From Gammaproteobacteria bacterium (GTDB lineage Bacteria; Pseudomonadota; Gammaproteobacteria; UBA9214), in contig JBFELL010000003.1 of NCBI GenBank assembly GCA_041552135.1, forward strand, positions 1-45,223: 45,223 nucleotides of DNA, in the 5' to 3' direction. A program made the position numbers and the translations under genes. The stretch's first letter is position 1. Each line of letters starts with the position of its first letter. Positions 409-27,340 of this stretch are shown here, piece after piece. Below the pieces are notes generated by a model. The model had not been told where the DNA came from. It did no database searches and worked only from the letters and a program-made list of their open reading frames with translations.

Positions 409-918
409 ATGAGCGCCACCAGCCCGGAATTGCCTGGCGAATCACTGCCGGCCCTTGACCGGCGCATTGTACTGGCGACGCAGACCGGTCTGCCGCTGCA
501 CCCCCGGCCCTACCACTGGCTGGCCAGCGAACTCGGTGTCACGCCGCAGCTGATCATGGAGCGCCTCAATGCCATGCTGGCCGATGGCCGCATCCGCCGC
601 ATTGGCGTGGTTCCCAACCATTACCGCCTCGGTTACGTGGCCAACGGCATGACGGTCTGGGATGTGCCGGACGAGTGCATCCACGAGGCCGGACAGGAGG
701 TCGGCAGGCTGGAGTATGTCAGTCACTGCTATCACCGGCCGCGTCAGTTGCCGGAATGGCCCTACAACCTGTTCGCCATGGTGCACGGACACAGCCGCGA
801 GGAAGTGGATCTCCAGGTCGATCGCATCGCGGCCCTGCTCGGTGAGCGACAGCGGCAACATGATATCCTGTTCAGTAGCAGGATACTGAAAAAAACCGGA
901 TTGCGCCTGGGGGGCTGA
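409..918 (+). CDS. nirH: Heme d1 biosynthesis siroheme decarboxylase subunit NirH
   Basis: GLPLHPRPY, PNHYRLGYVANGMTVWDV, VSHCYHRPR..WPYNLFAMVHG and ILKKTGLRL motifs of NirH/AhbB. Confidence 0.9.
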   Translation: MSATSPELPGESLPALDRRIVLATQTGLPLHPRPYHWLASELGVTPQLIMERLNAMLADGRIRRIGVVPNHYRLGYVANGMTVWDVPDECIHEAGQEVGRLEYVSHCYHRPRQLPEWPYNLFAMVHGHSREEVDLQVDRIAALLGERQRQHDILFSSRILKKTGLRLGG

Positions 919-919
919 T

Positions 920-2137
920 ATGTTTCGCATTTCACACTACATGCAGGCGCTGGCACAACCGGCGCCCGAGACCATTCCGGCAGTGCGCAAACCGTCAGGT
1001 CCGGTGGTGATCTGGAACCTGATCCGCCGCTGCAACCTGACCTGCAAGCACTGCTACTCGATCTCCGCCGATATCGATTTCCCCGGCGAACTGACGACCG
1101 CGCAGGTGTTCGATGTCATGGACGACCTGAAAGGCTTCGGCGTGCCGGTGCTTATCCTCTCCGGCGGCGAACCGCTGCTGCGCCCGGACATCTACGAAAT
1201 CTCCGCCCGCTCCAGGGCCATGGGCTTCTACACCGGGCTGTCCACCAACGGCACGCTGATCGACGCCGGCAATATCGATCGCATCGCGGAGGTCGGCTAC
1301 AACTACGTCGGCATCAGCCTCGACGGCATGCGCGAGACACACGACCGCTTCCGGCAGAAACAGGGCGCGTTCGATGCCTCGCTCAATGCCATACGCCTGT
1401 GCCGCAAGGCCGGCATCAAGGTCGGTATGCGATTCACGCCAACACAGGACACCGCCGACGAACTGCCTGACATACTGCGACTGATGGACGACGAGGACGT
1501 CGACAAGCTCTACGTCTCGCACCTGAACTACGGCGGGCGCGGCAACCGTCACCGCGGCTCGGATGTCATCCACGCCGTGACCCGGCAGGTCATGGACCTG
1601 CTGTTCGATGCCGGCTGGGCCGATGCACAGGCCGGGCGCAACCGCGAGTTCGTCACCGGCAACAACGACGCCGACGGCGTCTACCTGCTGAAGTGGGTGG
1701 AACGCAACCTGCCGGAGCGCTACAGGGAGATGCATGAGCGACTGGTCCGCTGGGGCGGCAACGCCTCCGGCGTCAACATCGCGAACATCGACAACCTGGG
1801 CAATGTGCACCCGGACACCTTCTGGTGGAACTACAACCTCGGCAACGTCAGGGAGCGCCCCTTCTCCGACATCTGGGTGGACACCAGCGACCCGCTGATG
1901 GCCGGCCTGAAGGCCTCGCCGCGACCACTGCGCGGTCGCTGTTCGGCCTGCGGCTTTCAGGACATCTGCGGCGGCAACACCCGCGTGCGCGCCTTCCAGA
2001 TGACCGGCGACCCCTGGTGGGAAGACCCGGCCTGCTACCTGGACGATGCCGAACTGAACATGCGAGCGGAGGATTACGCCGACGCGAAACCGGAGCCGCT
2101 GGCACTGAACGTGCGTACCATTCGCCGGGCGAGCTGA
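920..2137 (+). CDS. nirJ: Radical SAM heme d1 biosynthesis protein NirJ
   Basis: N-terminus MFRISHYM; PVVIWNLIRRCNLTCKHCY (CxxxCxxC); C-terminal SPASM cysteines CSACGFQDICGGNTRVRA. Confidence 0.95.
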   Translation: MFRISHYMQALAQPAPETIPAVRKPSGPVVIWNLIRRCNLTCKHCYSISADIDFPGELTTAQVFDVMDDLKGFGVPVLILSGGEPLLRPDIYEISARSRAMGFYTGLSTNGTLIDAGNIDRIAEVGYNYVGISLDGMRETHDRFRQKQGAFDASLNAIRLCRKAGIKVGMRFTPTQDTADELPDILRLMDDEDVDKLYVSHLNYGGRGNRHRGSDVIHAVTRQVMDLLFDAGWADAQAGRNREFVTGNNDADGVYLLKWVERNLPERYREMHERLVRWGGNASGVNIANIDNLGNVHPDTFWWNYNLGNVRERPFSDIWVDTSDPLMAGLKASPRPLRGRCSACGFQDICGGNTRVRAFQMTGDPWWEDPACYLDDAELNMRAEDYADAKPEPLALNVRTIRRAS

Positions 2138-2202
2138 GCTAACAACGGTCTGGATATGAATCCAAACGCGTATTGCTTCAGATCGAAGTCAAAATGGGAA
2201 CT

Positions 2203-2286
2203 CCCTCTCCCTCCAGGGAGAGGGCCGGGGTGAGGGTGATCTGTTATTCTAGCCCCCTCACCCTGCCCTTCTGCCAGGAAGGCAGG
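2203..2286. repeat. REP-like palindromic element (CCCTCTCCC-N4-GGGAGAGGG-CCGGGGTGAGGG type) with a degenerate inverted partner
   Basis: 9-bp perfect stem at 2203-2224, CCGGGGTGAGGG at 2225-2236, inverted partial copy CCCCTCACCCTGCCC from about 2254. Confidence 0.7.
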
Positions 2287-2348
2287 TTGATCGCTGCGCC
2301 CGGTCTGCCTATGTTCTGCTCGCAGCAACACCCTGTTTCCCGCACTCC

Positions 2349-3947
2349 GTGACCGCCTTGCCAATCCTGAAAAAACCGTTTGCAAACAAACTGTGCGGCC
2401 TGCTGGTCATCGGCACTACGGTTGTTACCAGCTACGCCAGCGCCGGCGAGGTAGATGCAACCGCCCTCTACCGCAAGCACTGCGTCGACTGCCACGGCGC
2501 CGGGCGCCTCGGCGGCATGGGCCCGGCCCTGTTCCCCGAGAACCTGCGGCGCCTGCATCGGGACAAGGCGGCAAAGGTCATCGCCAATGGCCTGCCGGCC
2601 ACGCAGATGCCGGCCTTCGGCGAGAAGCTCGACACGGCACAGATCGACGCCCTGGTCGGGTACCTCTATTCGCCCCCCGCGAGCATACCCGTGTGGGGCG
2701 AGAGCGAGATCCGCGCCAGCCACGTGATACACAAGCCGGCCCTGCTGCAGCCGGATGCCGCCGCACTCAAGCCGCTCTACAGCGCCGACCCTTTGAACCT
2801 GTTCCTGGTCGTCGAGGCCGGCGACCACCATGTCACGGTGCTGGACGGCGACCGGCTGGAGCCGATCCACCGCTTCAAGTCACGCTACGCGTTGCATGGC
2901 GGCCCCAAGTACTCCTCCAGCGGCCGCTATGTTTATTTCGCATCGCGCGATGGCTGGATCAGCAAGTTCGACATGTACCGCCTGGAGACCGTGGCCGAGG
3001 TACGCGCCGGCATCAACACCCGCAATGCGGCGGTCTCGGCGGACGACCGCTATGTCATGGTCGGCAACTACCTGCCACACACTCTCGTGTTGCTGGACGC
3101 CCGCGATCTCGGCCTGATCAGGGTCATCCCCGTCATGGACGACCACGGCAGCAGTTCGCGCGTCAGTGCCGTCTATACCGCGCCACCGCGGGACAGCTTT
3201 ATCGTCGCCCTGAAGGACCTGCAGGAAATCTGGGAGATCAACTATTCCGATGATCCGCCACCCGTGTACCGCGGCCTGGTGCATGACTACCGCATGGAGG
3301 AAGGCATTGCGGAACGCGGACGTTTCCCGATACGTCGCATCAGGCTGGAAGACTATGTCGATGATTTCTTCTTTGACCAGGCCTACCAGAACCTGATCGG
3401 TGCCGCGCGCAGCGGCAGCAAGGGCCAGGTGGTCAACCTGATTGTCGGGCGCAAGATCGCCGACATCGATCTGCCCGGCATGCCCCACCTGGGGTCGGGC
3501 ATCACCTGGCCGTACCGGGACACCACCATCCTGGCAACCCCCAACCTGAAGGAAGGCGTGGTAAGCATTATCGACACGCGCGACTGGAAGACACTGAAGA
3601 AGCTCGACACCCTGGGGCCTGGTTTCTTCATGCGCAGCCATGAGGACTCCCGCTATGCCTGGGTCGATGTCTTCTTCGGCCCGGACCGTGATGCCATGCA
3701 TGTTATCGACAAGCAGACGCTGGAAATCGCCAAAACGTTGCGCCCGTCACCCGGCAAGACCTCAGCGCACGTCGAGTTCACCCGTGACGGCAGGTATGCC
3801 CTGCTCAGTATCTGGGACATGGACGGCGCCCTGGTGGTGTACGACGCCGAGCGCCTCGAGGAGGTCAAGCGGATCCCCATGAAAAAACCGGTCGGCAAAT
3901 ACAATGTCTACAACAAGATCCACCGCTCCGAAGGCACCAGCCACTGA
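2349..3947 (+). CDS. nirN: NirN, dihydro-heme d1 dehydrogenase (cytochrome c plus d1-type beta-propeller)
   Basis: Signal peptide; CVDCH heme c motif; RYALHGGPKYS, GMPHLGSGITW, GPGFFMRSHE and KPVGKYNV motifs; last gene of the nir cluster. Confidence 0.9.
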   Translation: MTALPILKKPFANKLCGLLVIGTTVVTSYASAGEVDATALYRKHCVDCHGAGRLGGMGPALFPENLRRLHRDKAAKVIANGLPATQMPAFGEKLDTAQIDALVGYLYSPPASIPVWGESEIRASHVIHKPALLQPDAAALKPLYSADPLNLFLVVEAGDHHVTVLDGDRLEPIHRFKSRYALHGGPKYSSSGRYVYFASRDGWISKFDMYRLETVAEVRAGINTRNAAVSADDRYVMVGNYLPHTLVLLDARDLGLIRVIPVMDDHGSSSRVSAVYTAPPRDSFIVALKDLQEIWEINYSDDPPPVYRGLVHDYRMEEGIAERGRFPIRRIRLEDYVDDFFFDQAYQNLIGAARSGSKGQVVNLIVGRKIADIDLPGMPHLGSGITWPYRDTTILATPNLKEGVVSIIDTRDWKTLKKLDTLGPGFFMRSHEDSRYAWVDVFFGPDRDAMHVIDKQTLEIAKTLRPSPGKTSAHVEFTRDGRYALLSIWDMDGALVVYDAERLEEVKRIPMKKPVGKYNVYNKIHRSEGTSH

Positions 3948-3980
3948 TCAGGCCGCTCCTGCCAGCATTGGATACGCACC

Positions 3981-4023
3981 TGTAGTAGCGCCGCCCCCGG
4001 CGCGATAGGGCGCCGCTCCTGCA
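3981..4023. repeat. Degenerate GTAG-type REP inverted pair between the convergent nirN and hemerythrin genes; may act as a terminator hairpin
   Basis: TGTAGTAGCGCCGCCC...GGGCGCCGCTCCTGCA; an extra GCCGCTCCTGC half-copy at about 3952-3962. Confidence 0.5.
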
Positions 4024-4121
4024 CCGGTTTATCCCGGATTGAGGTCGTGTCAGGTGCATAGCACCGTAACCGGACACGGATACTCCCCCGCGGGAGAGGC
4101 AGGATTGCAGCGGATACCGCC

Positions 4122-4514
4122 TTATCCCAGGTGTTTGTGCAAACGGGCATCCCGGTTCCTGAAGTGGTCGGTAAACCATTTGCCGACGGCTTCCGCGAAT
4201 TCGTCATCGCTGAACCAGGCATTTTCCTCGTAGTCATCCATGATGTCGCGCAACTCATCCAGCAGATCCTCGTGGTCCGCCTTGTGCTCGGCATACCGGT
4301 CATACTTGCGCTCACGCATGATTTTCTCTTCCAGCGCAAAGTGCGCCGCCACATGCGCATAGATCTCGCCGAGAAAATCCATTATCGTGTAATCGCTGTC
4401 GCCCTTCGACACGGCCTCATGCAGGTCATTGATCAGCGCGATGAGTTCCCGGTGCTCGTGGTCAACATCGGGCACACCTACGGAGAACTCGTCTTTCCAC
4501 TCGATCAGCGCCAT
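4122..4514 (-). CDS. Single-domain bacteriohemerythrin
   Basis: MALIEWKDEFSVGVPDVDHEH...HFALEE...HKADH...HFRNRD gives the full H/HxxxE/HxxxH/HxxxxD di-iron ligand set; GAGGAG RBS before ATG 4514. Confidence 0.92.
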   Translation of the reverse strand: MALIEWKDEFSVGVPDVDHEHRELIALINDLHEAVSKGDSDYTIMDFLGEIYAHVAAHFALEEKIMRERKYDRYAEHKADHEDLLDELRDIMDDYEENAWFSDDEFAEAVGKWFTDHFRNRDARLHKHLG

Positions 4515-4521
4515 GGTCTCC

Positions 4522-5025
4522 TCACAGAAACAGGAATCCGCCGAATTCCGGCCGGAAGTCGATAACAAAATTCTGCTGCGGCGCCAGCGTGACCTCGGCC
4601 GATTTCACGTAATCGAAGCCCTCTTCGCGGCGGCTGTCACGCAAGCGTGCTACGAGCTGATGTGATCCGGCGGCCACGGGAAACTTCCTGTATGCAGTCG
4701 AGGCACCGTCACCGGCCAGCCCCGAGGGGGGCAATTCATCACGGTAGAGGATTTCGCCATCCAGTTCCAGTTCAACCAGCAGCGGCCGTCGCTCACGCGG
4801 ACAGTCCATGGGCCGCCGCATATTGGGTGGCAAGCGGTCCAGTTCCTCCTGTGTCAGCTGCCGGCATTCCTCCCTGTGGGCTCCGGCATGGCTGAAACTG
4901 AGCTTGATCAGCGCCTTGTCCGGATCCAGGTGGGTATAGGCCGGTTGTGTCGCGAAATAACCCACCACCAGCGCAAACAGCGCGTAGGCGATGAACTGAC
5001 CGATAAACCGGGTCACCTTAATCAT
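4522..5025 (-). CDS. Membrane-anchored hypothetical protein, partner of the cytochrome b/Fe-S fusion
   Basis: N-terminal TM helix, two Cys (EECRQ, MDCPRER), beta-rich C-terminus; start overlaps the stop of the upstream gene. Confidence 0.75.
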   Translation of the reverse strand: MIKVTRFIGQFIAYALFALVVGYFATQPAYTHLDPDKALIKLSFSHAGAHREECRQLTQEELDRLPPNMRRPMDCPRERRPLLVELELDGEILYRDELPPSGLAGDGASTAYRKFPVAAGSHQLVARLRDSRREEGFDYVKSAEVTLAPQQNFVIDFRPEFGGFLFL

Positions 5026-6601
5026 GAGACCCGGCGCCCTCCTCTACGCGTTCCTCCGACGACCTGCGAGGGCGTCGCTTGAATGGCGGCAGCGCCCTGA
5101 GCCTGTCCTGGAATGCCTGGATTTCCCGCTGCAGACGCCTGCTGCGGGTGATTCCCGCCCAGAGTCCGGCGACACGTTCACGCGGGATACGCTTGCGCAA
5201 ATACGGGTCACGCTCGCCGGCAAGCCGTTGCCCGGTCCAGTCTATGCCCAGTCGGTAGTAACAGTTGCCATCGCTGCATCCGGTCAGGAATACGCCATCG
5301 GCATGGTCGCGGGAGATCACGAAATCGATGAATGAGGGTGGCAGCATGGCGATGCATGGAAGTTCAAGGACCGCAACATCCGCACCCCGGAACTGCTGCA
5401 GCGCCGGACCATGGCCGCATCCATACACAACGACACGTGCGTTACCGCTCAGATTTTCCGTTGCGCTCAGGGTATTCGCGAGCAGTGTCTGTACATCCGA
5501 GTCAGGCAGGTCGATGCCGGGTACAAGTTCAGAGGTGCGACGAAAGGGGGTGGCCGTTGGACAGGCGCCCACACAGATACCGCAACTGGTGCACAGGTTG
5601 TCGATGACGACGGCCTCGTGGGAGAACGCAGCAGCATCCGTACGCGGTTCCAGTGACACCGCGCTGAACGGACAGTCGTCCACACAGCGACCACAGCCAT
5701 TGCAATTATCGAGATCCACACTGGCCGTTGCCCGACGGCGCAATGGTGGCAACCAGGGCAGCAATACCAGCAGCAGGGTGCCGGCCCCGGCAATTGCCCA
5801 CATGGCCAGCCCGGGGATCCTGTCGAGCAGCGGATAGGCCACCAGGTAAAACCAGTCGAAGTCCATGACCGCAGGTACCCTGTCGAGATTCGCGGGTGCC
5901 TGGCTGACCGCCGGCCTGACCAGGGACAGCACCAGCAGCATACCCAGGGTGCCAACAGCCAGCCCGACCGGCGGGTTGACCCTGGCATTGCGCTGCCGCT
6001 GGATATGTATCCACATCACCAGCAGCATGAAGAGCGGCACCGCAATGTGGATGAACACCATGAGCGTGAAGAACCGGCCACTCAGCGTGTCGTTGTTCAG
6101 GAAATTTCGGGCGATCGACTGGCCGAAGATGCCCAGCGAGTCGAGCCACTCGGTTGAGGCAATGGCGATATACTGCGCCAGCACATCCCATACCATCCAG
6201 TAGCCACTGATACCACAGGCAAACACCAGCCACAGCAGCGGCACCCCGGTAAACCAGGTGAACCAGCGCGCACCGCGGTAACGGTCCATGACAAACTCGC
6301 GCACCAGATGCAGCATCATGACAATGATCAGGGCGTCAGAGGCATAGCGATGCAGGCTGCGCATGACGCCACCGGCATACCACTGCACGTTGGTGATATA
6401 TTCAAGCGATTCGTACGCCTGGTTTATACCCGTGTCGAAAAATATGTAGAGATAGATACCGCTGACAATGGTAATCCAGTAGAAATACCACCCCAGCGTA
6501 CCGAGGTGGAAAAGCGGATTCCACGCCGGGGTAAAGGCGGAGTTGAATACGTTGTCTACGCCTTCAAAGGCCGCTCTGGCAACGCTACGCAGACCGGTCA
6601 C
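5018..6601 (-). CDS. Cytochrome b/b6-like membrane protein fused to a 2x[4Fe-4S] ferredoxin and an MvhD/FlpD-like [2Fe-2S] domain
   Basis: Heme His pairs LHRYASDALIIVMMLH and IHIAVPLFMLLVMWIH; DWFYL at the PEWY-like position; CNGCGRCVDDCP and CTSCGICVGACP; YGC..LPC..ADGVFLTGCSDGNCYY; GTG start at 6601 with AGGAG upstream. Confidence 0.85.
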   Translation of the reverse strand: MTGLRSVARAAFEGVDNVFNSAFTPAWNPLFHLGTLGWYFYWITIVSGIYLYIFFDTGINQAYESLEYITNVQWYAGGVMRSLHRYASDALIIVMMLHLVREFVMDRYRGARWFTWFTGVPLLWLVFACGISGYWMVWDVLAQYIAIASTEWLDSLGIFGQSIARNFLNNDTLSGRFFTLMVFIHIAVPLFMLLVMWIHIQRQRNARVNPPVGLAVGTLGMLLVLSLVRPAVSQAPANLDRVPAVMDFDWFYLVAYPLLDRIPGLAMWAIAGAGTLLLVLLPWLPPLRRRATASVDLDNCNGCGRCVDDCPFSAVSLEPRTDAAAFSHEAVVIDNLCTSCGICVGACPTATPFRRTSELVPGIDLPDSDVQTLLANTLSATENLSGNARVVVYGCGHGPALQQFRGADVAVLELPCIAMLPPSFIDFVISRDHADGVFLTGCSDGNCYYRLGIDWTGQRLAGERDPYLRKRIPRERVAGLWAGITRSRRLQREIQAFQDRLRALPPFKRRPRRSSEERVEEGAGSHD

Positions 6602-6662
6602 TTGCTTCGGGGCTCCTGCGCGGATCCAGGGATATCCGCTACCGGCAGCTTGCCATCCGGCA

Positions 6663-7592
6663 TCATGCCACCGGTCCCGATGATGAGGATTCCCGCCAGC
6701 TGCGCACAATCACCCAGGCAATCCCGCTGAGCACCAGCACGCCAATGCCGAAAGCGATAAAGGGGGAATAGTCAAATTGATACATGCCGGTCGTCGGGTC
6801 ATACACCGTACAAAACAGCTTGATATTGTTTATCCACCCGGCAATCGGTGTGGAAGCGACCTGCTTGCCCCACAGGATCTCCTTGAGCGGTTCCACCAGG
6901 GACGGCGGCTCGGGGGCCATGCCGTAGATCTGGCGATAGACCTTGCCCTCCCCGTCGATCACGGTCGCCTGGATCATGTGATCGAAGCCCTTGGGTGAGC
7001 TGAAATAGCTGAACCCGATATCGCTGGACAGACCGCGCATGGTTTCGGCGCTGGCGCTGACAAAATGCCAGTCATTGATATCGATCCCGCGCTGCCCGGC
7101 AAACACGCGCATCCGGTCGGGGGTGTCGTTCGGGGTATCAAAGCCGATGGTCAGGACCGAGAAACTGTCCGTCCCCAGGGCATCCCTGGCGACCCTGACC
7201 ACGCTGGCGAGATTGGTCGTGATGGTCGGACAGATGTGGTAGCAACTCGTATAGATCAGGCTGATCACCACCGGCCTGCCGCGCAACGCACTCAACGCAA
7301 CCTGCTGACCCTTGCCATCGAGGAAGGTGTAATCATGCACGGTCCGGCCTATGGCTGCCTGGCTCAGGGCAAGCGCTGCAGCCTCGTCATAATCCGGACC
7401 CGGCTCATGCGCAGCTGCGTCGTGGTCTTGCCCGGCGATGGCATCCACATGCCCGCCTGCAGCCATATCATGAGCGGCCGCGTCATGATCGCTTGCCGCA
7501 TGCCCCGGGGACTGCGCAGCAGCCGTACCCATAATGAACAGCATCACAAGCACCAGCAGGCGTGCAGAATGCAGCCAGCCGGTAGCGTTCAT
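6663..7592 (-). CDS. SCO/SenC copper chaperone with His-rich N-terminus and C-terminal membrane anchor
   Basis: YTSCYHICP (CxxxC), FDHMIQATVID (Cu-binding His), DHDAAAH twice; start position approximate. Confidence 0.88.
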   Translation of the reverse strand: MNATGWLHSARLLVLVMLFIMGTAAAQSPGHAASDHDAAAHDMAAGGHVDAIAGQDHDAAAHEPGPDYDEAAALALSQAAIGRTVHDYTFLDGKGQQVALSALRGRPVVISLIYTSCYHICPTITTNLASVVRVARDALGTDSFSVLTIGFDTPNDTPDRMRVFAGQRGIDINDWHFVSASAETMRGLSSDIGFSYFSSPKGFDHMIQATVIDGEGKVYRQIYGMAPEPPSLVEPLKEILWGKQVASTPIAGWINNIKLFCTVYDPTTGMYQFDYSPFIAFGIGVLVLSGIAWVIVRSWRESSSSGPVA

Positions 7593-7743
7593 GTGTGAAT
7601 CAGTGCAAATGTACCGGGGGCGCAAGGCAGAACCTCATTTCACAAGACACCGGAGGTGCACTGAGCGGAGCGGCTGCAGGAAATCGCCGGGACACGCGTT
7701 GACATCGGGAATCATCGACCTTGCGTGCGACCGGACCTTCAGC

Positions 7744-8646
7744 CTAGATCAGCCAGGCATCCAGAATGGCGCCCGTGAGCAGCAGGCTCAGCTGCACCAG
7801 CGAGGCATGAAAGTTTATCATGGCCATCCCGGGTGACGGGTCACGCACAAGAGCGACACTGGTCCATAAAAACCTGGCCCCGCCCAGGGCCGCGCCCAGC
7901 AGATAGATCCAGCCCAGGCCATACATGACCGGCAACAGCGAGAGTCCGACGAGCACGACGGTATGCCCCAGTATGATCCACGCGGCCGTTGCGTCCCGGA
8001 CCACCACCGGCAGCATGGGAACGCCGGCGGCCGAATACTCGTCCTTGTACTTGAACGCCAGGCTCCAGAAGTGTGGCGGCGTCCACAGGAACAGGACAAT
8101 CGCCAGGATCAGCGGCGCCGGCGCAAGCCCGGGATCTACCGCGGCGGCCCCCGCAAGGATGGCAAAGCTGCCGGCAAGGCCGCCGATGACGATATTCACC
8201 CAGGTGCGGCGCTTGAGCCATACGGTATAGACCACGCCGTAGACGAAAGCCCCCATGAAGACATAGAACGCCGCAACGGCATTGGTCGCAAGTGTGGCGG
8301 CGGTGATGGACACCACCAGCAACAGCACGATTCCGGCAAGCCAGTAACCACTGGCGTGGAACCGCCCTGTCACAAAGGGCCGGTTGCGGGTACGGTTCAT
8401 GCGCGCATCAAGATCGCGCTCCATGTACATATTGAAGGCGCCGGCACTGGCCGAGGACAGCAACACCGCCAGCGCCAGCAGCACAAGCTGCAGTGTGCCC
8501 GGCGCCTGTCCGGGGGCCACCGCCACACCCGCCATGGCGGTAAACATGATGGCAAACCCGATGCGCAGCTTGAATACCGAGTAGACGAGCGCCAGCGTCT
8601 CCTTCACCGGGATGCCATCAGCACGACTGATCAGCGCAGTGGCCAT
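7744..8646 (-). CDS. cyoE: Protoheme IX farnesyltransferase (heme o synthase)
   Basis: FNMYMERDLDARMNRTRNRP, YTVWLKRRT and FLWTPPHFWSLA...EYSAAGVPMLPVV motifs. Confidence 0.95.
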   Translation of the reverse strand: MATALISRADGIPVKETLALVYSVFKLRIGFAIMFTAMAGVAVAPGQAPGTLQLVLLALAVLLSSASAGAFNMYMERDLDARMNRTRNRPFVTGRFHASGYWLAGIVLLLVVSITAATLATNAVAAFYVFMGAFVYGVVYTVWLKRRTWVNIVIGGLAGSFAILAGAAAVDPGLAPAPLILAIVLFLWTPPHFWSLAFKYKDEYSAAGVPMLPVVVRDATAAWIILGHTVVLVGLSLLPVMYGLGWIYLLGAALGGARFLWTSVALVRDPSPGMAMINFHASLVQLSLLLTGAILDAWLI

Positions 8647-10307
8647 ACTTCCGCCAGGTACTTCCAGTTGACGAAGTAGTACAGCACGAAGGCCGTGAAG
8701 AACACCGCAACCAGCACCACGGTTCCCGGTATCCTGATGCTCTCCGCACTGCCATATTTGGTGGCCGTTGTCATGGTAAGACCTTCCAGCGGCTTGTCCC
8801 CGGTGCGCTTGCCGAACAGCACAGAGCCCACAATGATCAGGATAAACAGCAGCCCCCCGAGTGCCGCCAGCACGGCGCTCATGCCGTTCAGGCCCATCAT
8901 CAGGTACGCTGCACCGGAATAGTCATATTTGAGTGCCGCATCGGCACCGGTGATGTCCCACACCCTGCGCGGCACACCCAGGGTGCCCGCCCCCATCATG
9001 AAGACCGAAATGCCCATCACACCGAGACCGAACAGATAGGGTTGCCACCTGGCGAACCCTTTCATCACCAGCTCGCGCCGAAAGATCAGCGGCACCAGCA
9101 GGTAGGTGCCCGCCATGAAGGCCAGGGTCGTACCGGCCACCACCGTTGCGTGGAAATGGCCGGGTACATACAGGGTGTTGTGCATGATCAGGTTGATCTG
9201 TTCGGTACCCATGACCACACCGGAGATACCGCCCAGGAAACCGAACATGACCAGCGACATGAACATGCCGGAGAAGGCCGGATTGCCCCACGGCGCCTTG
9301 CGCAGCCACTCGAACAGCCCGTTGGTGTAGCCGCGGGCACGCTGCGCCGCCTCGATCGAGCCGGGTACGGTCATGCCGTGGAGCATGCTGCCCAGCACGG
9401 CCAGGTACAGGGCGTAGCTGGTATTGAAGACCTTCCACTCGGAACTGATACCCGGTTCGACCAGCAGGTGATGCGCACTGGCAAGCTGCAGAAACAGGAT
9501 GTACATCAGGAACGCCATGCGGCTGACCTTCTCGGACAGCGGTTTGGCACCGAGCACCACCGCGGCGATCAGGTACCAGATCGCGACGTGCGCCGAGACA
9601 TTGATCTGCTGGGAAGAATGGCCCATGGCCCACCAGACGGTCTTGTACATCAGGGTATCGATATTGCCGATATAGCCCAGCGACCACAAAAAGGTCGGGA
9701 TCAGGATGATGGCGCCCGAGGCAATGGTGAATACCGCGATGATTGCGGCCGTGACGGCGCCGAAGGTTACCAGCGGGATGGAACCCTCATAGGTCTTCTC
9801 CTCCTTGGCAACCACCAGGGTGCCGAAAAACACAAAACAGCCGATCAGTGCGCCAACGGCAAACAGGATCAGGCCCAGGTAGAAGTGCGGCGCGGCCTGC
9901 ATCGGCACGTAGGAGGTAAACATGACACTGGAATTACCCTGCAGCACGGCGACGTTGACGATGATGGCACCGACCAGCATCAGGGCAAACCCGGTCCAGG
10001 CCCAGCGGGGTGCGGCAAGACGCGAATTCAGCAAAATGGCCGAGGCGAAATACAGCACCGCGATTTCGAAAAAGATGATCCATACCAGCAGTACGTCCAG
10101 TCCGTGCCCGGTCAGCACCAGGTAGAACCACTCGGCCGGCAGCAGGTGTACCCCGGGCCAGCGCGTGAGGGCCACCAATAGGCCGAAAAAGCCGCCGACA
10201 GCGAGGAAAATGATCGCCGTCACGGCGTTGGCCTTGATCAGGTTCTCGGCGGAACTGTGAATGCGCAGCCCGGTGGCCGGGCAGACACGATGTTGGAAAG
10301 TTGACAT
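8631..10307 (-). CDS. Heme-copper superfamily subunit I, B-family-derived, eNOR-type nitric oxide reductase
   Basis: LTGHG, WWAMGHSSQQINV (Gln at the H+4 position where O2 reductases have Tyr), ASAHHLL, GTEQINLIMHNTLYVPGHFH and GVPRR. Confidence 0.85.
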   Translation of the reverse strand: MSTFQHRVCPATGLRIHSSAENLIKANAVTAIIFLAVGGFFGLLVALTRWPGVHLLPAEWFYLVLTGHGLDVLLVWIIFFEIAVLYFASAILLNSRLAAPRWAWTGFALMLVGAIIVNVAVLQGNSSVMFTSYVPMQAAPHFYLGLILFAVGALIGCFVFFGTLVVAKEEKTYEGSIPLVTFGAVTAAIIAVFTIASGAIILIPTFLWSLGYIGNIDTLMYKTVWWAMGHSSQQINVSAHVAIWYLIAAVVLGAKPLSEKVSRMAFLMYILFLQLASAHHLLVEPGISSEWKVFNTSYALYLAVLGSMLHGMTVPGSIEAAQRARGYTNGLFEWLRKAPWGNPAFSGMFMSLVMFGFLGGISGVVMGTEQINLIMHNTLYVPGHFHATVVAGTTLAFMAGTYLLVPLIFRRELVMKGFARWQPYLFGLGVMGISVFMMGAGTLGVPRRVWDITGADAALKYDYSGAAYLMMGLNGMSAVLAALGGLLFILIIVGSVLFGKRTGDKPLEGLTMTTATKYGSAESIRIPGTVVLVAVFFTAFVLYYFVNWKYLAEVWPLR

Positions 10308-10325: not shown

Positions 10326-10859
10326 TTATTCGGTCACGTAGATCTTGCCGATCATGTTGTGATGACCGATGCCGCAGAATTCATTGCAAACCACCCCGAA
10401 CTCGCCCGCTTCATTCGGTGTCAGCGTCACGACCATGTCGTAGTTGGGATGAACCTGCAGGTTGATATTGACCGGCTGCAGGGAAAACCCGTGCTGCCAG
10501 TCCATGGAGGACAGATGCAGGCGGTAGGTCTGGTCTTTCTCGAACTCGATGATCGGCCACCACTGCCACAGCCTTGCGATCATGTAAACATCACTGCCGG
10601 GTGGCGGATGCACTACCGGGAATCCCGCCTCCTCGCGCACCTGGTATTTCTCCACCATGGCATTCGCCTTTTCGGCAAACAGCTCCGGTGTGATGCGATA
10701 GGATTCATTGGACAGGTTCTGTTCACCGTACATGTGCCAGTAGATCATTGCCGAAAACATCAACAGCCCCCACAGGAAGGCAATGACGATCCAGACAATC
10801 TCGGTACGCGCTATCGGCTCTTTCCACCAGATGCGCTGGGGTGGAGGAGTAATTGCCAT
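10326..10859 (-). CDS. Heme-copper enzyme subunit II with CuA centre
   Basis: One TM helix; DWQHGFS and CNEFCGIGHHNM CuA ligands; ba3-type size. Confidence 0.92.
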   Translation of the reverse strand: MAITPPPQRIWWKEPIARTEIVWIVIAFLWGLLMFSAMIYWHMYGEQNLSNESYRITPELFAEKANAMVEKYQVREEAGFPVVHPPPGSDVYMIARLWQWWPIIEFEKDQTYRLHLSSMDWQHGFSLQPVNINLQVHPNYDMVVTLTPNEAGEFGVVCNEFCGIGHHNMIGKIYVTE

Positions 10860-11063: not shown

Positions 11064-11244
11064 CCTTACCCCCTCGGTAGATGTTTGCTTCAGATCAGCC
11101 GGTGCTCGCAGGTACTGCAGCCTTGCACATCCACACGGCATCGCGGTTTCAAGTGGTAGTGTTGTCAAATCACGGCAGTCACCGCGATCAGCAACACGTA
11201 TCAAGCATTAACCCGTATAGAACTATTTATTGCAATTATCTGCC

Positions 11245-11258
11245 TTGACTTATATCAA
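11245..11258 (-). promoter_or_regulatory. FNR/DNR/NnrR-type binding box upstream of the eNOR operon
   Basis: Minus strand TTGATATAAGTCAA matches 9 of 10 positions of TTGAT-N4-ATCAA; extended palindrome CCTTGA..TCAAGG at 11243-11260; -10-like TATACG on minus at about 11214-11219. Confidence 0.85.
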
Positions 11259-11673: not shown

Positions 11674-12393
11674 CTAGAAACCTGCGCGCGTTATGTAAGT
11701 TCGCAAGCGCTCGATGTCATGAATCCTGATGGTGTTATCAGCGATATCAATGTAGCCATCCCTGCTCAGCTTGGCGAGCGTGCGTGACAGGGTCTCCGGT
11801 GTAACGGACAAACGCGATGCAATCACGTGCTTGGGGGCATCCAGTTGAACCTCTGAAGCATGCCGGTGAGTACTGGGCAGGTGATCCAGCAGGTAGGTCA
11901 CGACGCGGAAGGCCGCATTGTGCAGCGTCAGGCGGTCGAGTTCGGCAATCTGCCAGTGCAGTCGGCGGCTCATCTGGGCCATCACGGCGAAACAGGCGCC
12001 GGTCGATTGCCGCAATATGGCTTCATAGGTCGCGGCATCGATCCCCCACACCTGGCTTCCGAGCAGTGCCGTGGCCGTGACCGGGTAGCGCCGCCTGCCG
12101 GAGAACATGATGGCCTCCGCAAACGAGCCGCCGGGCGCAATGAGATCAATGACCTTCTCATGCCCATCGGGCGATATCAGCGCCAGCTTGATCTGCCCGC
12201 TACGCAACAGGAAGATTTCCTTCGCCGGCTGCTGCTGCTCGAACAGCGTATCGTTCTCTGCCAGCAGCACCGAACGGGTGCGGGAAAGTATTTTTTCAAA
12301 TTGCCCGTCGTCAAGATCGGAAAACAGCAGACATTGGCGCAAACACTGCCGCGCATCCGTACCCTGCTTATCGCTCAGTTTTTCAGGTCTCAT
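11674..12393 (-). CDS. dnr: Crp/Fnr family regulator, DNR/NnrR-like
   Basis: GHEKVIDLIAPGGSFAEAIMF, YPVTATAL and HTH KHVIASRLSVTPETLSRTL; denitrification context. Confidence 0.8.
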   Translation of the reverse strand: MRPEKLSDKQGTDARQCLRQCLLFSDLDDGQFEKILSRTRSVLLAENDTLFEQQQPAKEIFLLRSGQIKLALISPDGHEKVIDLIAPGGSFAEAIMFSGRRRYPVTATALLGSQVWGIDAATYEAILRQSTGACFAVMAQMSRRLHWQIAELDRLTLHNAAFRVVTYLLDHLPSTHRHASEVQLDAPKHVIASRLSVTPETLSRTLAKLSRDGYIDIADNTIRIHDIERLRTYITRAGF

Positions 12394-15947: not shown

Positions 15948-17708
15948 TCAGTCTGGGTTGACCGTCTGGAAGAAGCTCATCATGCCGCGCGCCGAGTGTT
16001 CCAGTATGTGACAGTGGAACAGCCAGCCACCCGATACGCCCTCTTCCGGCACCTTGCCGGCTGCAGCCACCTGTCCTTCCCGTCCGGTATCGTCGAAGCT
16101 TGCCGCCAGCCGGATAATGGTGCGGCTTCTGCCGCGCGCCCCCGGTCGTGCCGGCAGCTGGATGGTGTCCTTGATCTCCCGGTACGGCGCGGCCTCGGTG
16201 TAGTTGTTCTCCGGGTTGTCCATGTCCATGTACTGCGTCTCGATCAGCTGGAAGCTGAAGCCGTGGGTATGGAAATTGTGCATACCGCCGGTCATGTTGT
16301 GCACTTCCCAGATGCCGTTCTCACCGACAGTGACGGTATAGGCATCCTCCGGGGTCACCTTGTCGAATGGCAGGGGCATCATGCCACCGCTGCCGTCCGG
16401 CTTCATCTGCACGAAGAAGGTGACATCGCCGTTTGCATCCGGCGCACTGTGTCCGAACATGGATTTCAGGATACCGGCGCCCGTGGTATCGATGGGTTCG
16501 ATGGCACGCAGCGGATCCGGCGGGATGTAATCATCCTTGCTGTCGTTGGCAATCAGCTTGAAGCGCATCAGCACCTCGGGCGGTCGCTTGCCGTCATCGT
16601 GGGCATGTCCGATGCCGATGCTGCCGTCATCGTTATAGAAGGTGCTGTGCCTGCCGCGGGCGACATCGTGCCATTCGAGCGACAGCGATCCCTTGCCATG
16701 CGGGGTGAAGACGACATCGGCCCGCTCGCCCGGTGTCAGCAGGATTCCCTTCGATAAATCGGGGTCGGAGATCATCGGCATCTCCTCATCGGATATGTCT
16801 GTCGAAGCGGCGGCCATGCCGTTCATATGCCCGCCATCCTGCATGAGTTCGACGGGTTCGATCGCCAGCGGCGATTCGATCAGCCCGCCATCCCCGCCGA
16901 TGCGATACAGCGTGTGGCCGGGGATGGACAGCCGCATGAAACGGGCATTGGCGGCATTGACGATGCGCAGGCGGTACGGCTGCCCCCGGCGGAACTTGGC
17001 AAGGGGTTGCGTAACACCATTGACCAGCAGGACATTGCCCTCCCGCCCGTTCAGCTGGGTCGCGGCATTCTCCAGGGGATCGTCCGGAAACGGATCCGCC
17101 ACCCGGCCATCCGCATCCAGCAGGATGTCATCCAGCACGAGGATGTGTTCATTCGCCGGCAGCCCCAGATCCCGGTTTGCCCCGGGATCCTCGACCAGCA
17201 GGGCACCGTACAGGCCCTTCTCGACCTGCACGTTGGTGCGTATGTGCGGGTGATACCAGAACAGCGAGGCATGCAGGAGTTTGAACTCGTAGCGGAAATA
17301 GTCATCGCCCTCACGGCTGAGGTCGCAGTTGCCGGGTTTAACGGGCAGCTGTGCAATGTGGCTGCCGTCCATATTGGCGGGCACATCCATGCCATGCCAG
17401 TGAATCGTGGTGTCCTCGTCCAGGCAGTTATGGAAATGCACAATCAGGGTGTCGCCGACCTTGCCACGGATGGTCGGGCCGGGTATGCCACCATTGTAGG
17501 TCCATACCTTCGTGGGGATCCCGGTACCGAAGTCGACATAATCCTCACGAGCAACCAGCTCCACTTCGACAATATCCGGATCCGGATTGAGATCGACGGC
17601 GTCGGCGGGCGCGAAAGGTCTGGGTGGGGCTGCGCTACCGGACGAGGCGGTAAACAACAGGCTCAAGGCCAGGAGGAAGCCACAAAAACCGATTGGCCTT
17701 TTGGACAT
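15948..17708 (-). CDS. Secreted three-domain multicopper oxidase (laccase/CueO-like)
   Basis: IHWHG, WYHPH, HNFHTHG and HCHILEHSARGMM give all T1/T2/T3 ligands; signal peptide from ATG 17708; Met/His-rich insert. Confidence 0.92.
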   Translation of the reverse strand: MSKRPIGFCGFLLALSLLFTASSGSAAPPRPFAPADAVDLNPDPDIVEVELVAREDYVDFGTGIPTKVWTYNGGIPGPTIRGKVGDTLIVHFHNCLDEDTTIHWHGMDVPANMDGSHIAQLPVKPGNCDLSREGDDYFRYEFKLLHASLFWYHPHIRTNVQVEKGLYGALLVEDPGANRDLGLPANEHILVLDDILLDADGRVADPFPDDPLENAATQLNGREGNVLLVNGVTQPLAKFRRGQPYRLRIVNAANARFMRLSIPGHTLYRIGGDGGLIESPLAIEPVELMQDGGHMNGMAAASTDISDEEMPMISDPDLSKGILLTPGERADVVFTPHGKGSLSLEWHDVARGRHSTFYNDDGSIGIGHAHDDGKRPPEVLMRFKLIANDSKDDYIPPDPLRAIEPIDTTGAGILKSMFGHSAPDANGDVTFFVQMKPDGSGGMMPLPFDKVTPEDAYTVTVGENGIWEVHNMTGGMHNFHTHGFSFQLIETQYMDMDNPENNYTEAAPYREIKDTIQLPARPGARGRSRTIIRLAASFDDTGREGQVAAAGKVPEEGVSGGWLFHCHILEHSARGMMSFFQTVNPD

Positions 17709-17795
17709 ATCTAAATCCAGTATTTCGTTTGGTGACTCGTATGCTGAGTGAGAATGGATTGAATGGTCAAGAACTGAACATCTGTCAGGAAATAC

Positions 17796-17823
17796 GGGCG
17801 CCCGGCCTTGCAACCGGGCGCCC
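17796..17823 (-). terminator. GC-rich hairpin downstream of the 785-aa SoxB-like gene
   Basis: GGGCGCCCGG-N8-CCGGGCGCCC, a perfect 10-bp stem; weak U-tract (GTATTT) on minus. Confidence 0.5.
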
Positions 17824-17875
17824 TTTGCCATACACACGTGCAGTTGTTGATGAACTCGATCCGCAAGCCCGGCCA

Positions 17876-23813: not shown

Positions 23814-23822
23814 AACCTAACA

Positions 23823-25652: not shown

Positions 25653-25661
25653 ATCACCGCA

Positions 25662-27340
<1,679 letters not shown>

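What the first reader, a model, noticed from the sequence alone, without database searches (positions are those of the whole stretch)
4522..6601. Rieske-less cytochrome b-ferredoxin-MvhD fusion plus partner in the eNOR operon
Seen: one polypeptide with four heme-b His in b6-like spacing, a PEWY-like DWFYL, two CxxCxxCxxxCP clusters and four MvhD-like Cys. It overlaps a 167-aa membrane-anchored two-Cys protein. No Rieske protein, cytochrome c1, hydrogenase or HdrA is nearby. Established: MvhD normally wires HdrA to hydrogenase or formate dehydrogenase. Inference: an uncharacterised transmembrane electron module linking cytoplasmic Fe-S carriers or quinol to eNOR, or supplying redox power for its cofactor maturation.
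Basis: partly seen in the sequence, partly recalled or inferred. Interest (0 to 1): 0.8.

Follow-up and report, generated by a model that had tools for sequence, protein, structure and literature searches.

The report
Cytochrome b/iron-sulfur partner of eNOR
A membrane protein with two haems and three iron-sulfur clusters, plus its small periplasmic partner, is a real and conserved but untested companion of one type of nitric-oxide reductase that makes N2O; this copy is an ordinary member of a family already noted in print.

Summary
Window 6601-5018 (minus strand) encodes a 527-aa protein with three parts: a six-helix, two-haem cytochrome b; two CxxCxxCxxxCP motifs; and an MvhD/FlpD domain with four Cys. 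It overlaps by 8 nt a 167-aa single-helix protein with two invariant Cys. One detail is off: the helix-D His spacing is bc1-like, not b6-like.

The neighbouring haem-copper enzyme carries the eNOR marker, Gln at the cross-link Tyr site. The link to eNOR is strong. Subunit I lies beside the fusion in 57 of 57 and 35 of 36 testable loci. In a 401-genome sample, 50 genomes have both genes, 3 only the fusion, 1 only eNOR, and 347 neither.

The 167-aa protein is the split-off fourth module: many relatives carry it fused after MvhD. Its fold is a generic beta-sandwich with no cofactor fold. The genome also has a canonical bc1 and CtaA, so the module replaces neither.

Sister proteins swap the Fe-S/MvhD arm for NAD(P)H-flavin reductase modules. 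This suggests, but does not show, that electrons enter from the cytoplasm. The function is untested.

The architecture was catalogued in 2014, and its place in an eNOR operon was noted in a 2026 preprint. This scan found the family before on other DNA. Verdict: a new member of a known but uncharacterised kind.

The parts
5018..6601 (-). Cytochrome b / 2x[4Fe-4S] / MvhD-like fusion protein, 527 aa plus stop, with a GTG start
   Evidence: Translation; AGGAG 11 nt upstream of the start. Pfam PF00033, Fer4 and PF02662. Homologues are 527 aa. AlphaFold model has pLDDT 83.1 and pTM 0.80.
5747..6601 (-). Membrane domain, residues 1-285: six helices, haem ligands H84/H98/H185/H199, and a Qo-like FDWF at 248-251 in the periplasmic E-F loop
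   Evidence: The family profile aligns to yeast cytochrome b residues 19-310 and to b6. Best Foldseek match is bc1 cytochrome b, 9bpb_C, E 1.2e-7 over 282 columns. Residue conservation; helices.
5549..5716 (-). Two ferredoxin-type CxxCxxCxxxCP motifs, residues 296-351, predicted to lie in the cytoplasm
   Evidence: Pfam Fer4 and Fer4_7. All eight Cys are kept in 72 of 72 loci. The profile matches the HdrA C-terminal ferredoxin domain, 5odc_A.
5072..5446 (-). MvhD/FlpD-like domain, residues 386-510, with C395, C416, C442 and C447
   Evidence: PF02662 at 39.3 bits against a cut-off of 22.3. The profile matches MvhD chains 9sw2_D (4.5e-11) and 5odc_D (1.1e-9). Cys conservation.
4522..5025 (-). 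167-aa partner: one N-terminal membrane helix plus a periplasmic beta-sandwich with invariant C54 and C75. It is the split-off fourth module of the fusion.
   Evidence: 8-nt overlap with the fusion gene. AlphaFold pLDDT 93.6. Alignment A1. Fused in frame after MvhD in 57 of 150 representative proteins, in 3 of 80 loci and in 13 of 79 loci. No Pfam or NCBIfam match.
4122..4568 (-). Bacteriohemerythrin. The ORF starts at TTG 4568; the family match begins at residue 19-21, so ATG 4514 is the likelier start.
   Evidence: NCBIfam NF033749 at 104.5 bits against a cut-off of 84. Downstream of the partner gene in 69 of 71 near loci and 37 of 54 wider loci.
6663..7625 (-). Sco1/SenC-type copper chaperone with a CxxxC motif, a His/Asp-rich N-terminal stretch and a C-terminal membrane helix
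   Evidence: PF02630 at 1.1e-11. Sequence and hydropathy. Directly upstream of the fusion in 70 of 70 and 63 of 64 testable loci.
7744..8646 (-). Heme O synthase (CtaB/CyoE)
   Evidence: TIGR01473 at 260.6 bits against a cut-off of 210.3. Present in 44 of 57 near loci.
8631..10307 (-). eNOR-type haem-copper subunit I, 558 aa, with Gln234 at the site of the cross-linked Tyr
   Evidence: PF00115 at 8.1e-65. In the alignment to T. thermophilus ba3, GHSSQQ pairs with GHPIVY. The marker is defined in PMC8756737, section 2.7.1 (passage read). H..Q plus HH is present in 105 of 105 neighbouring subunit-I ORFs of at least 500 bits.
10326..10859 (-). eNOR subunit II: a cupredoxin with a complete CuA motif, H123...C158-x3-C162-x3-H166-x2-M169
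   Evidence: TIGR02866 and COX2 matches are below their cut-offs. The CuA ligands are invariant in 37 of 37 aligned sequences.
11245..11258 (.). FNR/DNR-like palindrome TTGACTTATATCAA, about 385 nt upstream of subunit II
   Evidence: Pattern scan found it with 1 mismatch. The consensus used is recalled. This is a consensus match only.
11674..12393 (-). Crp/Fnr-family regulator upstream of the operon
   Evidence: PF00027 and PF13545.
2349..3947 (+). Cytochrome cd1 nitrite reductase NirS, convergent with the operon. NirJ lies at 920-2137 and a NirD/L-like gene at 409-918.
   Evidence: PF02239 at 1.3e-119. TIGR04051 NirJ at 626 bits.

Best explanation
The 527-aa protein and the 167-aa protein are two pieces of one membrane redox unit. 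Many relatives make it as a single polypeptide of about 700 aa.

The unit has three parts:
- a bc1-type cytochrome b with six helices and two haems, which keeps a Qo-like pocket (FDWF) on the periplasmic side;
- a cytoplasmic chain of two [4Fe-4S] clusters and an MvhD-type cluster;
- a seventh helix carrying a periplasmic beta-sandwich with no cofactor fold.

It is a dedicated accessory of the eNOR-type nitric-oxide reductase. It does not replace bc1 or haem A synthase.

Proposed mechanism (inferred, not shown): it is a transmembrane electron wire. Electrons from a cytoplasmic reductant enter at the MvhD/ferredoxin arm. They cross the membrane through haem bH and haem bL. They leave at the periplasmic face, where eNOR's CuA subunit takes electrons. 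This would resemble NOX/FRE-type reductases, or NarI-NarH run in reverse.

Shown: the anatomy, the conservation, the genetic link to eNOR and Sco, and the split/fused relation of the two genes. Inferred: cofactor occupancy, physical contact with eNOR, and the direction of flow.
For: Anatomy:
- Pfam and NCBIfam domains.
- The family profile matches b6, bc1 cytochrome b, MvhD and the HdrA ferredoxin domain.
- Foldseek matches bc1 cytochrome b.
- All 4 His and all 12 Cys are kept in 72 of 72 loci.

Topology:
- Homology to cytochrome b helices A-F.
- The loops predicted to face the cytoplasm, DRYRGARW, HIQRQRNARVN and RRRATAS, are rich in Arg. This puts the Fe-S arm inside and the partner's sandwich outside.

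One unit:
- The two genes overlap by 8 nt.
- The partner lies downstream in 73 of 74 and 59 of 61 testable loci.
- It is fused in frame in 57 of 150 representative proteins.

Link to eNOR:
- Subunit I lies beside the fusion in 57 of 57 and 35 of 36 testable loci.
- The Gln marker is present in all 105 neighbouring subunit-I ORFs of at least 500 bits.
- In a 401-genome sample the counts are 50 both, 3 fusion only, 1 eNOR only, 347 neither.
- Sco is adjacent in 70 of 70 and 63 of 64 testable loci.

Not a replacement:
- G000 has CtaA, Rieske proteins, cytochrome b and cytochrome c1 elsewhere.
- Five of five other genomes with both genes have c1 and CtaA.

Direction:
- Sister proteins of the same cytochrome b clade, 48-54% identical in that domain, carry different cytoplasmic arms.
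- One arm is flavodoxin + FAD + NAD(P)H (P0167). Another is [2Fe-2S] + FAD + NAD(P)H (P0166, P0232).
- In characterised enzymes such modules pass electrons from NAD(P)H to an acceptor. This point is recalled knowledge.

Expression:
- Contigs from RNA libraries of two studies cover the whole operon, junctions included. This is weak, because DNA carry-over is not excluded.
- The Ferrigenium preprint reports all four proteins (eNOR I and II and the two cytochrome b-[Fe-S] proteins) in a denitrifying proteome (passage read).
Against: - No cytoplasmic donor for the MvhD arm is encoded in the operon.
- The Qo-like Asp-Trp and the cd-loop residues (G130, G133, Y134, W135, W138, D139) are invariant. 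This argues for a working quinol site rather than a plain wire.
- The partner's periplasmic domain shows no cofactor fold, so the last step to CuA has no obvious carrier.
- The genome already has bc1 to feed a CuA enzyme.
- Outward electron flow would waste membrane potential.
- In one family the pair lies 10 kb to 927 kb from the eNOR genes.
- The flavin-arm variant was not found full-length in the 401 genomes sampled. Its own link to eNOR therefore rests on one preprint.
- R. marinus eNOR, purified as the enzyme alone, reduces NO with artificial donors (PMC11214002, passages read). The module is therefore not needed for catalysis itself.
Confidence: 0.45

Rival explanations
1. Rieske-less Qo-type quinol oxidation with two exits. 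Quinol is oxidised in the FDWF pocket. One electron goes to a high-potential acceptor on the outside: eNOR's CuA, in the place of the Rieske head. The other runs inward through bL, bH and the Fe-S chain to a low-potential cytoplasmic acceptor such as NAD(P)+ or ferredoxin. NO reduction would then pay for reverse electron flow. The Ferrigenium preprint proposes something close to this.
For: - Qo-motif Asp249 is kept in 72 of 72 loci and 100 of 103 representatives, and the cd loop is invariant.
- The fold and sequence are bc1-like through helix F.
- No Rieske protein is encoded nearby.
- The preprint suggests coupling NO reduction to NAD+ reduction (passage read).
- G000 has an Hdr-like cluster, so it may be a lithotroph that needs low-potential reductant.
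Against: - Electrons would have to go uphill from b haems to low-potential acceptors, and against the membrane potential.
- Diflavin reductase arms such as that of P0167 are not known to run towards NADP+ (recalled).
- Many carriers are labelled Rhodospirillales and similar. Whether they need reverse electron flow was not tested here.
- No contact between CuA and the module has been shown.
Confidence: 0.2
2. Maturation aid rather than catalytic electron supply. The module would send electrons to the periplasm to keep copper, iron or Sco in the reduced state needed to build CuA and FeB. Alternatively, it would feed electrons to haem A synthesis, with hemerythrin supplying O2 at low oxygen.
For: - Sco is directly upstream in 70 of 70 and 63 of 64 testable loci.
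- Heme O synthase is present in 44 of 57 loci and a CtaA homologue is adjacent in 5 of 80.
- Hemerythrin is adjacent in 69 of 71 near loci.
- eNOR uses a modified haem a, whose synthesis needs O2 (PMC11214002, passage read).
- One representative, P0222, joins Sco to the cytochrome b.
- Two-haem membrane proteins with NADPH-flavin arms include metal reductases (recalled).
Against: - Five redox centres kept in every lineage, and a partner gene that overlaps the fusion by 8 nt, seem a lot for an assembly step.
- The partner's Cys are 21 residues apart, not a CxxC motif.
- P0222 has no membrane helix between Sco and cytochrome b, so it may be a gene-calling artefact.
- Other CuA or haem a oxidases are not known to carry this module (recalled, not tested here).
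- In the family where the pair is unlinked, it leaves Sco and CtaB behind with eNOR.
- Hemerythrin is adjacent in only 37 of 54 wider loci.
Confidence: 0.2
3. An inward redox loop of the NarI/QmoC kind. Quinol is oxidised on the outer side and both electrons go inward to a cytoplasmic acceptor. The acceptor could be the adjacent hemerythrin, kept reduced for O2 or NO binding, or an unidentified reductase.
For: - Membrane cytochrome b proteins joined to cytoplasmic Fe-S proteins usually connect the quinone pool to a cytoplasmic enzyme (recalled: NarI-NarH, QmoC, HdrE-HdrD).
- Hemerythrin is directly downstream in 69 of 71 near loci.
- The Qo-like pocket is conserved.
Against: - This does not explain why the module tracks eNOR, a periplasm-fed enzyme.
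- Hemerythrin is missing in 17 of 54 wider loci and in the family where the pair is unlinked.
- The flavin-arm variants point to NAD(P)H as a partner, not to a terminal acceptor.
Confidence: 0.1

Closest known systems
'PDWF-FeS' clade of cytochrome b (Kao & Hunte 2014, Genome Biol Evol, PMC4122944; passages read)
   Same: [quoted passage not shown] No Rieske protein in the cluster. [quoted passage not shown]
   Different: In the passages read, the paper catalogues the architecture only. They mention no eNOR link, no partner protein and no function. The first position of the motif is Phe here rather than Pro (Leu in 50 of 72 orthologues).
Cytochrome b-[Fe-S] proteins of the Ferrigenium straubiae eNOR operon (bioRxiv 10.64898/2026.01.22.701106; passages read)
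   Same: Cytochrome b/[Fe-S] genes sit in an operon with eNOR II, eNOR I, heme o synthase, sco1 and a protein of unknown function. The proteins were seen in a denitrifying proteome.
   Different: That operon has two such genes, one with FAD- and NADH-binding domains. The window has one gene, with an MvhD-type end. The authors call the genes 'rather unusual', whereas here they accompany eNOR in nearly every locus sampled. Whether their 'eNOR scaffold protein' is the 167-aa family was not checked.
Cytochrome b of bc1 complexes, and cytochrome b6 plus subunit IV of b6f
   Same: Same fold through helix F, four His haem ligands, cd-loop motif and a Qo-type motif.
   Different: There is no Rieske or c1 partner and no helices G and H. 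The Qi side is followed by a fused Fe-S arm. The helix-D His spacing is 14 here against 15 in b6. NCBIfam scores are far below the cut-offs: b6 81 of 325, ExtP 98.5 of 290.
MvhD of the Mvh-Hdr complex (PDB 5ODC, 9SW2) and the C-terminal ferredoxin+MvhD end of HdrA2
   Same: Sequence matches to MvhD chains and to NCBIfam HdrA2 positions 570-773. Four conserved Cys.
   Different: No hydrogenase, formate dehydrogenase or HdrA is encoded beside it. Here the domain ends a membrane protein.
NarI-NarH, QmoC, and NOX/FRE-type reductases (working analogues only, recalled)
   Same: Two haems across the membrane are joined to a cytoplasmic Fe-S or flavin module.
   Different: The membrane folds are unrelated. 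No membership is claimed or tested.

Membership tests
Cytochrome b of Rieske/cytochrome b complexes (bc1, b6f) | Four His haem ligands on helices B and D, and the cytochrome b fold | tested here: met
   H84, H98, H185 and H199 are invariant in 175 of 175 sequences. PF00033 scores 60.4 bits against a cut-off of 27.2. The profile matches b6 at 2.7e-26. Foldseek matches bc1 cytochrome b at 1.2e-7.
Cytochrome b of Rieske/cytochrome b complexes (bc1, b6f) | PEWY-type Qo motif in the E-F loop | tested here: met
   The variant here is FDWF. D249 is kept in 72 of 72 and 100 of 103; W250 in 72 of 72 and 69 of 103. It corresponds to the PDWF pattern of PMC4122944.
Cytochrome b of Rieske/cytochrome b complexes (bc1, b6f) | Encoded and working with a Rieske iron-sulfur protein and a c-type cytochrome | tested here: not met
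   None is found among the window's ORFs. None of the window genes used as queries (which included no Rieske or c1) placed such a gene in the loci. The genome's Rieske, cytochrome b and c1 lie on other contigs.
Cytochrome b of Rieske/cytochrome b complexes (bc1, b6f) | Helices G and H, or a separate subunit IV that completes the C-terminal domain | tested here: not met
   The model has six long helices and then the Fe-S domain from about residue 296. The alignment to yeast cytochrome b ends at residue 310.
PDWF-FeS clade (Kao & Hunte 2014) | Cytochrome b with xDWF, fused to a 4Fe-4S domain and an MvhD-type domain, with no Rieske protein in the cluster | tested here: met
   The definition comes from PMC4122944, section 14. 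No tree placing this protein with the named members was built.
MvhD/FlpD (PF02662) | Sequence family match and four conserved Cys | tested here: met
   39.3 bits against a cut-off of 22.3. MvhD chains match at 4.5e-11 and 1.1e-9. The Cys are kept in 72 of 72 loci. That they bind a [2Fe-2S] cluster is inferred from the solved MvhD (recalled).
MvhD/FlpD (PF02662) | Works between a hydrogenase or formate dehydrogenase and HdrA | tested here: not met
   No such genes lie in the window. An Hdr-like cluster with its own Fer4-FlpD protein lies on contig C39.
eNOR family of haem-copper NO reductases (the neighbouring enzyme) | Gln in place of the cross-linked Tyr, with three His ligands kept | tested here: met
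   Q234 aligns to the Tyr of ba3, and HH and HFH are kept. The marker is present in 105 of 105 neighbouring subunit-I ORFs of at least 500 bits. It is defined in PMC8756737, section 2.7.1.
eNOR family of haem-copper NO reductases (the neighbouring enzyme) | CuA-type subunit II | tested here: met
   H123, C158, C162, H166 and M169 are invariant in 37 of 37 sequences.
eNOR family of haem-copper NO reductases (the neighbouring enzyme) | NO reductase activity, FeB, and modified haem a | not testable with these tools
   Shown only for the R. marinus enzyme (PMC11214002, passages read).
ExtP b-type cytochrome (NCBIfam NF040969) | Score over the curated cut-off | tested here: not met
   98.5 bits against a cut-off of 290.

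The most novel reading that the evidence does not exclude
The module is a Rieske-less Qo site in which eNOR's CuA takes the high-potential electron. The low-potential electron is driven inward through the haems and Fe-S chain to make reduced ferredoxin or NAD(P)H. The very high potential of NO reduction would then power reverse electron flow. This would be a new kind of quinol-based electron bifurcation.
Probability: 0.15. Interest if true: 0.9.

Novelty: new member of a known kind. Interest (0 to 1): 0.5.

Why it matters
eNOR is described as one of the most common NO reductases in nature and as a source of N2O (PMC11214002, passages read). In the papers read here, the purified enzyme was assayed only with artificial donors.

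The module described here tracks eNOR across genomes. This holds even where the two are not in one operon, and even though the same genomes keep a normal bc1. That makes it a strong candidate for a missing piece of eNOR's electron supply or assembly.

If it draws on cytoplasmic reductant, NO removal would be uncoupled from the quinone pool. If it splits electrons at a Qo site, it would be a new way to conserve energy. Either result would change how N2O-producing pathways are modelled.

For this window alone, the finding is an ordinary copy of that family.

Tried and rejected
- **Complex prediction.** The job held cytochrome b residues 1-295, the 167-aa partner, and eNOR subunit II residues 40-177 as the partner in question. 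It scored 0.00 against a mark of 0.32, and the tool's verdict was 'no answer'. I draw nothing from it. The pair fusion + 167-aa protein alone was never folded: the queue was full four times.
- **Fold of the 167-aa protein.** Only generic beta-sandwich matches came up. The best were the luminal domain of HGSNAT, at Z 9.1 and 8.6, followed by unrelated sandwiches at Z 5 to 7.5. Rieske and cupredoxin folds were not among the rows listed, which excludes nothing. The Atlas gave only unnamed 'hypothetical protein' clusters.
- **The fusion as a substitute for CtaA or bc1.** Rejected. G000 and five of five other carriers have both. CtaA sits beside the module in 5 of 80 loci.
- **The hemerythrin as obligatory partner.** Weakened. 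It is adjacent in 37 of 54 wider loci and absent from the unlinked loci.
- **A full-length cytochrome b + [2Fe-2S] + FNR variant (P0166).** Not found in 401 genomes. All hits covered only one half of the query.
- **P0222 (Sco + cytochrome b) and P0176 (end of an HCO-like protein + cytochrome b).** Not used as fusion evidence, because their linkers look like gene-calling artefacts.
- **Supplements of PMC11214002.** Seven files were searched for 'cytochrome b', 'Fig. S1', 'operon', 'ferredoxin' and 'hemerythrin', with no hits. One PDF could not be read. I therefore could not learn whether the R. marinus eNOR locus holds the module.
- **Promoter and terminator scans.** They gave nothing above the shuffles that I would use.
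- **Literature searches**. They found no functional study of this protein.
Full report
**What is there**

The minus strand of window 10859-4122 carries a tight gene row:
- a cupredoxin subunit II (10859-10326);
- a haem-copper subunit I (10307-8631);
- heme O synthase (8646-7744);
- a Sco1/SenC copper chaperone (7625-6663);
- the fusion gene;
- a 167-aa gene (5025-4522);
- a bacteriohemerythrin (4568-4122).

A Crp/Fnr regulator lies upstream (11674-12393). nirS and haem d1 genes lie on the other strand (409-3947).

The longest ORF for the fusion begins at 6709. Homologues are 527 aa, however, and they fit the GTG at 6601, which has AGGAG 11 nt upstream. The fusion's stop overlaps the ATG of the 167-aa gene by 8 nt.

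**Check of the observation**

Pfam places three domains on the ORF read from 6709, all above their cut-offs: cytochrome b at residues 64-236, two Fer4 motifs at 330-386, and FlpD/MvhD at 444-540.

I aligned the fusion with 72 orthologues from genomes and with the 103 representatives of at least 480 aa, out of the 150 listed.
- The four His (H84, H98, H185, H199) are invariant in all 175 sequences.
- The eight ferredoxin Cys are kept in 72 of 72 loci and 96-99 of 103 representatives.
- The four MvhD Cys are kept in 72 of 72 loci and in 96, 93, 94 and 76 of 103 representatives.
- In the FDWF motif, Asp249 is kept in 72 of 72 and 100 of 103. Trp250 is kept in 72 of 72 and 69 of 103.

A profile of 50 orthologues was searched against solved structures. 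It matches:
- cytochrome b6 at 2.7e-26;
- yeast cytochrome b over residues 19-310;
- MvhD chains at 4.5e-11 and 1.1e-9;
- the ferredoxin domain of HdrA.

The AlphaFold model has pLDDT 83.1 and pTM 0.80. Its best structural match is bc1 cytochrome b, at E 1.2e-7 over 282 columns.

The helix-D His pair is 14 residues apart here and 15 apart in b6.

**Topology**

By homology to cytochrome b helices A-F, the N-terminus, the B-C loop, the D-E loop and everything after helix F face the cytoplasm. These stretches are rich in Arg. The Fe-S arm is therefore inside, and the FDWF loop is outside.

The 167-aa protein has one helix after a short basic N-terminus. The rest is a confidently modelled beta-sandwich, with pLDDT 93.6, and it would lie outside.

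**The neighbouring enzyme is eNOR-type**

Subunit I aligns best to ba3 oxidase, at 5e-44. GHSSQQ aligns to GHPIVY, so Gln234 stands where the cross-linked Tyr is. The other His ligands are kept. This Gln is the published eNOR marker (PMC8756737, section 2.7.1, passage read). Subunit II keeps a full CuA motif in 37 of 37 aligned sequences.

**Association with eNOR**

I tested the association in three ways.

*Near relatives.* The 80 best genome loci are 54-86% identical. Counting only loci with enough flanking DNA:
- Sco, 70 of 70;
- subunit I, 57 of 57;
- subunit II, 54 of 55 (L007 misses);
- heme O synthase, 44 of 57;
- the 167-aa gene, 73 of 74 (L024 misses, and its fusion is truncated);
- hemerythrin, 69 of 71 (L024 and L042 miss).

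*A wider metagenome set.* The query was a profile of distant forms of about 700 aa, 24-40% identical to one another. It returned 79 metagenome loci. The counts are:
- Sco, 63 of 64;
- eNOR-like subunit I, 35 of 36 (L131 misses);
- subunit II, 30 of 31;
- the 167-aa module, 59 of 61;
- hemerythrin, 37 of 54.

All 105 neighbouring subunit-I ORFs of at least 500 bits that cover the active-site region have the Gln marker.

*A phylum sample.* In an even sample of 401 genomes of the phylum, G000 included, the fusion is in 53 and eNOR-like subunit I in 51. Both occur in 50, and neither in 347. Of the four exceptions I looked at two. In G090 the contig ends right after sco. In G174 a 5.3-kb contig starts in heme O synthase. 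Related genomes are not independent: the 53 genomes fall in 20 genera.

**The pair is not always in the eNOR operon**

In one family (f44), the fusion and its partner stay together but leave the eNOR-CtaB-Sco block.
- In G010 they are 927 kb apart on one contig, and the pair lies next to the isc genes.
- In four other genomes they lie 10-20 kb away among nirS-like genes, with no hemerythrin.

The genome-level link survives the loss of the operon link. This argues for a functional tie rather than mere hitch-hiking.

**The 167-aa protein is the fourth module**

Of the 150 representative proteins listed for the family (3,941 hits at E up to 0.001), 57 carry a match to the 167-aa protein after the MvhD domain. 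These are proteins of 595-750 aa. Two more, P0182 and P0239, join it straight to the cytochrome b with no Fe-S part.

It is in the same reading frame in 3 of 80 genome loci and 13 of 79 metagenome loci. The topology is consistent: the cytoplasmic end of MvhD leads into a helix and then an outside domain.

Its fold is a plain beta-sandwich. The best match is the luminal domain of HGSNAT at Z 9.1, with nothing specific beyond that. It has no family name. C54 and C75 are invariant and H46 nearly so. A disulfide is my guess, not a result.

**What the module is not**

G000 is 89% complete. It has CtaA on contig C55, three Rieske-domain proteins, and a cytochrome b next to cytochrome c1 on C221. Five further carriers from five families all have c1 and CtaA. 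The module therefore replaces neither bc1 nor haem A synthase.

**A clue to direction**

Within the same cytochrome b clade, at 48-54% identity to the window's membrane domain, the cytoplasmic arm varies:
- P0167 has flavodoxin + FAD + NAD(P)H domains.
- P0166 and P0232 have a [2Fe-2S] ferredoxin + FAD (+ NAD) module.
- P0172 has the [2Fe-2S] domain.
- P0168 has Fe-S motifs and part of a pyridine-nucleotide-disulfide oxidoreductase.

Kao & Hunte report such a form in Alicycliphilus. The Ferrigenium preprint reports one inside an eNOR operon. In characterised enzymes these modules take electrons from NAD(P)H (recalled). This is why I favour input from the cytoplasm.

Several observations count against that reading:
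- The Qo-like pocket is as well conserved as the haem ligands.
- No donor for the MvhD arm is encoded nearby.
- The flavin form was not found whole in the 401 genomes sampled.

**Expression**

Contigs assembled from four RNA libraries of two studies cover the operon, in 30, 30, 29 and 30 of 30 bins. One piece spans hemerythrin, the partner gene and the 3' part of the fusion (3945-5548). Another spans the fusion, sco and the start of ctaB (5512-7821). DNA carry-over was not excluded, and contigs do not prove a single transcript.

**What is already known**

The architecture was catalogued in 2014 as the PDWF-FeS clade (PMC4122944). Its place in an eNOR operon was noted in 2026 for Ferrigenium. 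This scan has reported the same family beside eNOR on other DNA more than a dozen times, and one of those reports was later marked as partly fallen.

No functional study turned up in three literature searches.

This window is therefore a new member of a known, uncharacterised kind.
- the split/fused relation of the partner, with counts;
- the family in which the pair is unlinked from the eNOR operon;
- the variable cytoplasmic arm as a hint to direction;
- the presence of bc1 and CtaA in carriers.

Noticed in passing
window 2173-2186 and 11085-11098; also 11245-11258: The same 12 bases, TTGCTTCAGATC, stand upstream of nirS and upstream of eNOR subunit II. A better FNR-like palindrome, TTGACTTATATCAA, lies at 11245-11258. 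These may be a shared DNR/NnrR-type site for the two operons.
   Followed up: no
L012:12553-14436, L013:9592-11016, L016:2790-4316, L052:7976-9406, L146:10723-12129 and others; protein P0252: A second, divergent haem-copper-like gene often lies just beyond the hemerythrin. It is 24-27% identical to eNOR subunit I. In P0252 this kind of domain is fused behind a cytochrome b of this clade; there it lacks the His-His metal ligands and has Phe at the Tyr/Gln site. The two low-scoring subunit-I-like ORFs in L104 and L121 show the same Phe and no His-His. The window itself has no such gene.
   Followed up: partly
L136:5833-7968, L138:6181-7992, L147:6253-7968, L165:6286-7965, L172:6005-7951, L177:6205-7965: Heme O synthase and Sco lie in one open frame in six metagenome loci. 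This may be a CtaB-Sco fusion protein.
   Followed up: no
G105:C1:51294-54404, G069, G137 and others of family f41; L108, L121, L134, L149: Two tandem copies of the cytochrome b/Fe-S/MvhD gene occur in a family of genomes of about 2 Mb and in four metagenome loci.
   Followed up: no
window 6663-7625: The Sco protein has a His/Asp-rich stretch after its first hydrophobic segment, and a second membrane helix at its C-terminus.
   Followed up: no
G000 contig C39 (L003:1-2871): The genome has an Hdr-like cluster. It comprises a 442-aa protein with Fer4 and a strong FlpD/MvhD domain (126 bits), an HdrC-like protein and an HdrB-like CCG-domain protein.
   Followed up: partly
L011, L012: Two MAGs labelled 'uncultured Halobacteria archaeon' carry the whole operon, with fusion proteins 71-76% identical to this one. 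The other close hits are labelled proteobacterial. The label or the binning looks doubtful.
   Followed up: no
window 15948-22879: A multicopper oxidase lies next to two large metallophosphatase/5'-nucleotidase-C proteins. There are also large ORFs with no Pfam match at 23253-26126 and 31792-33057.
   Followed up: no
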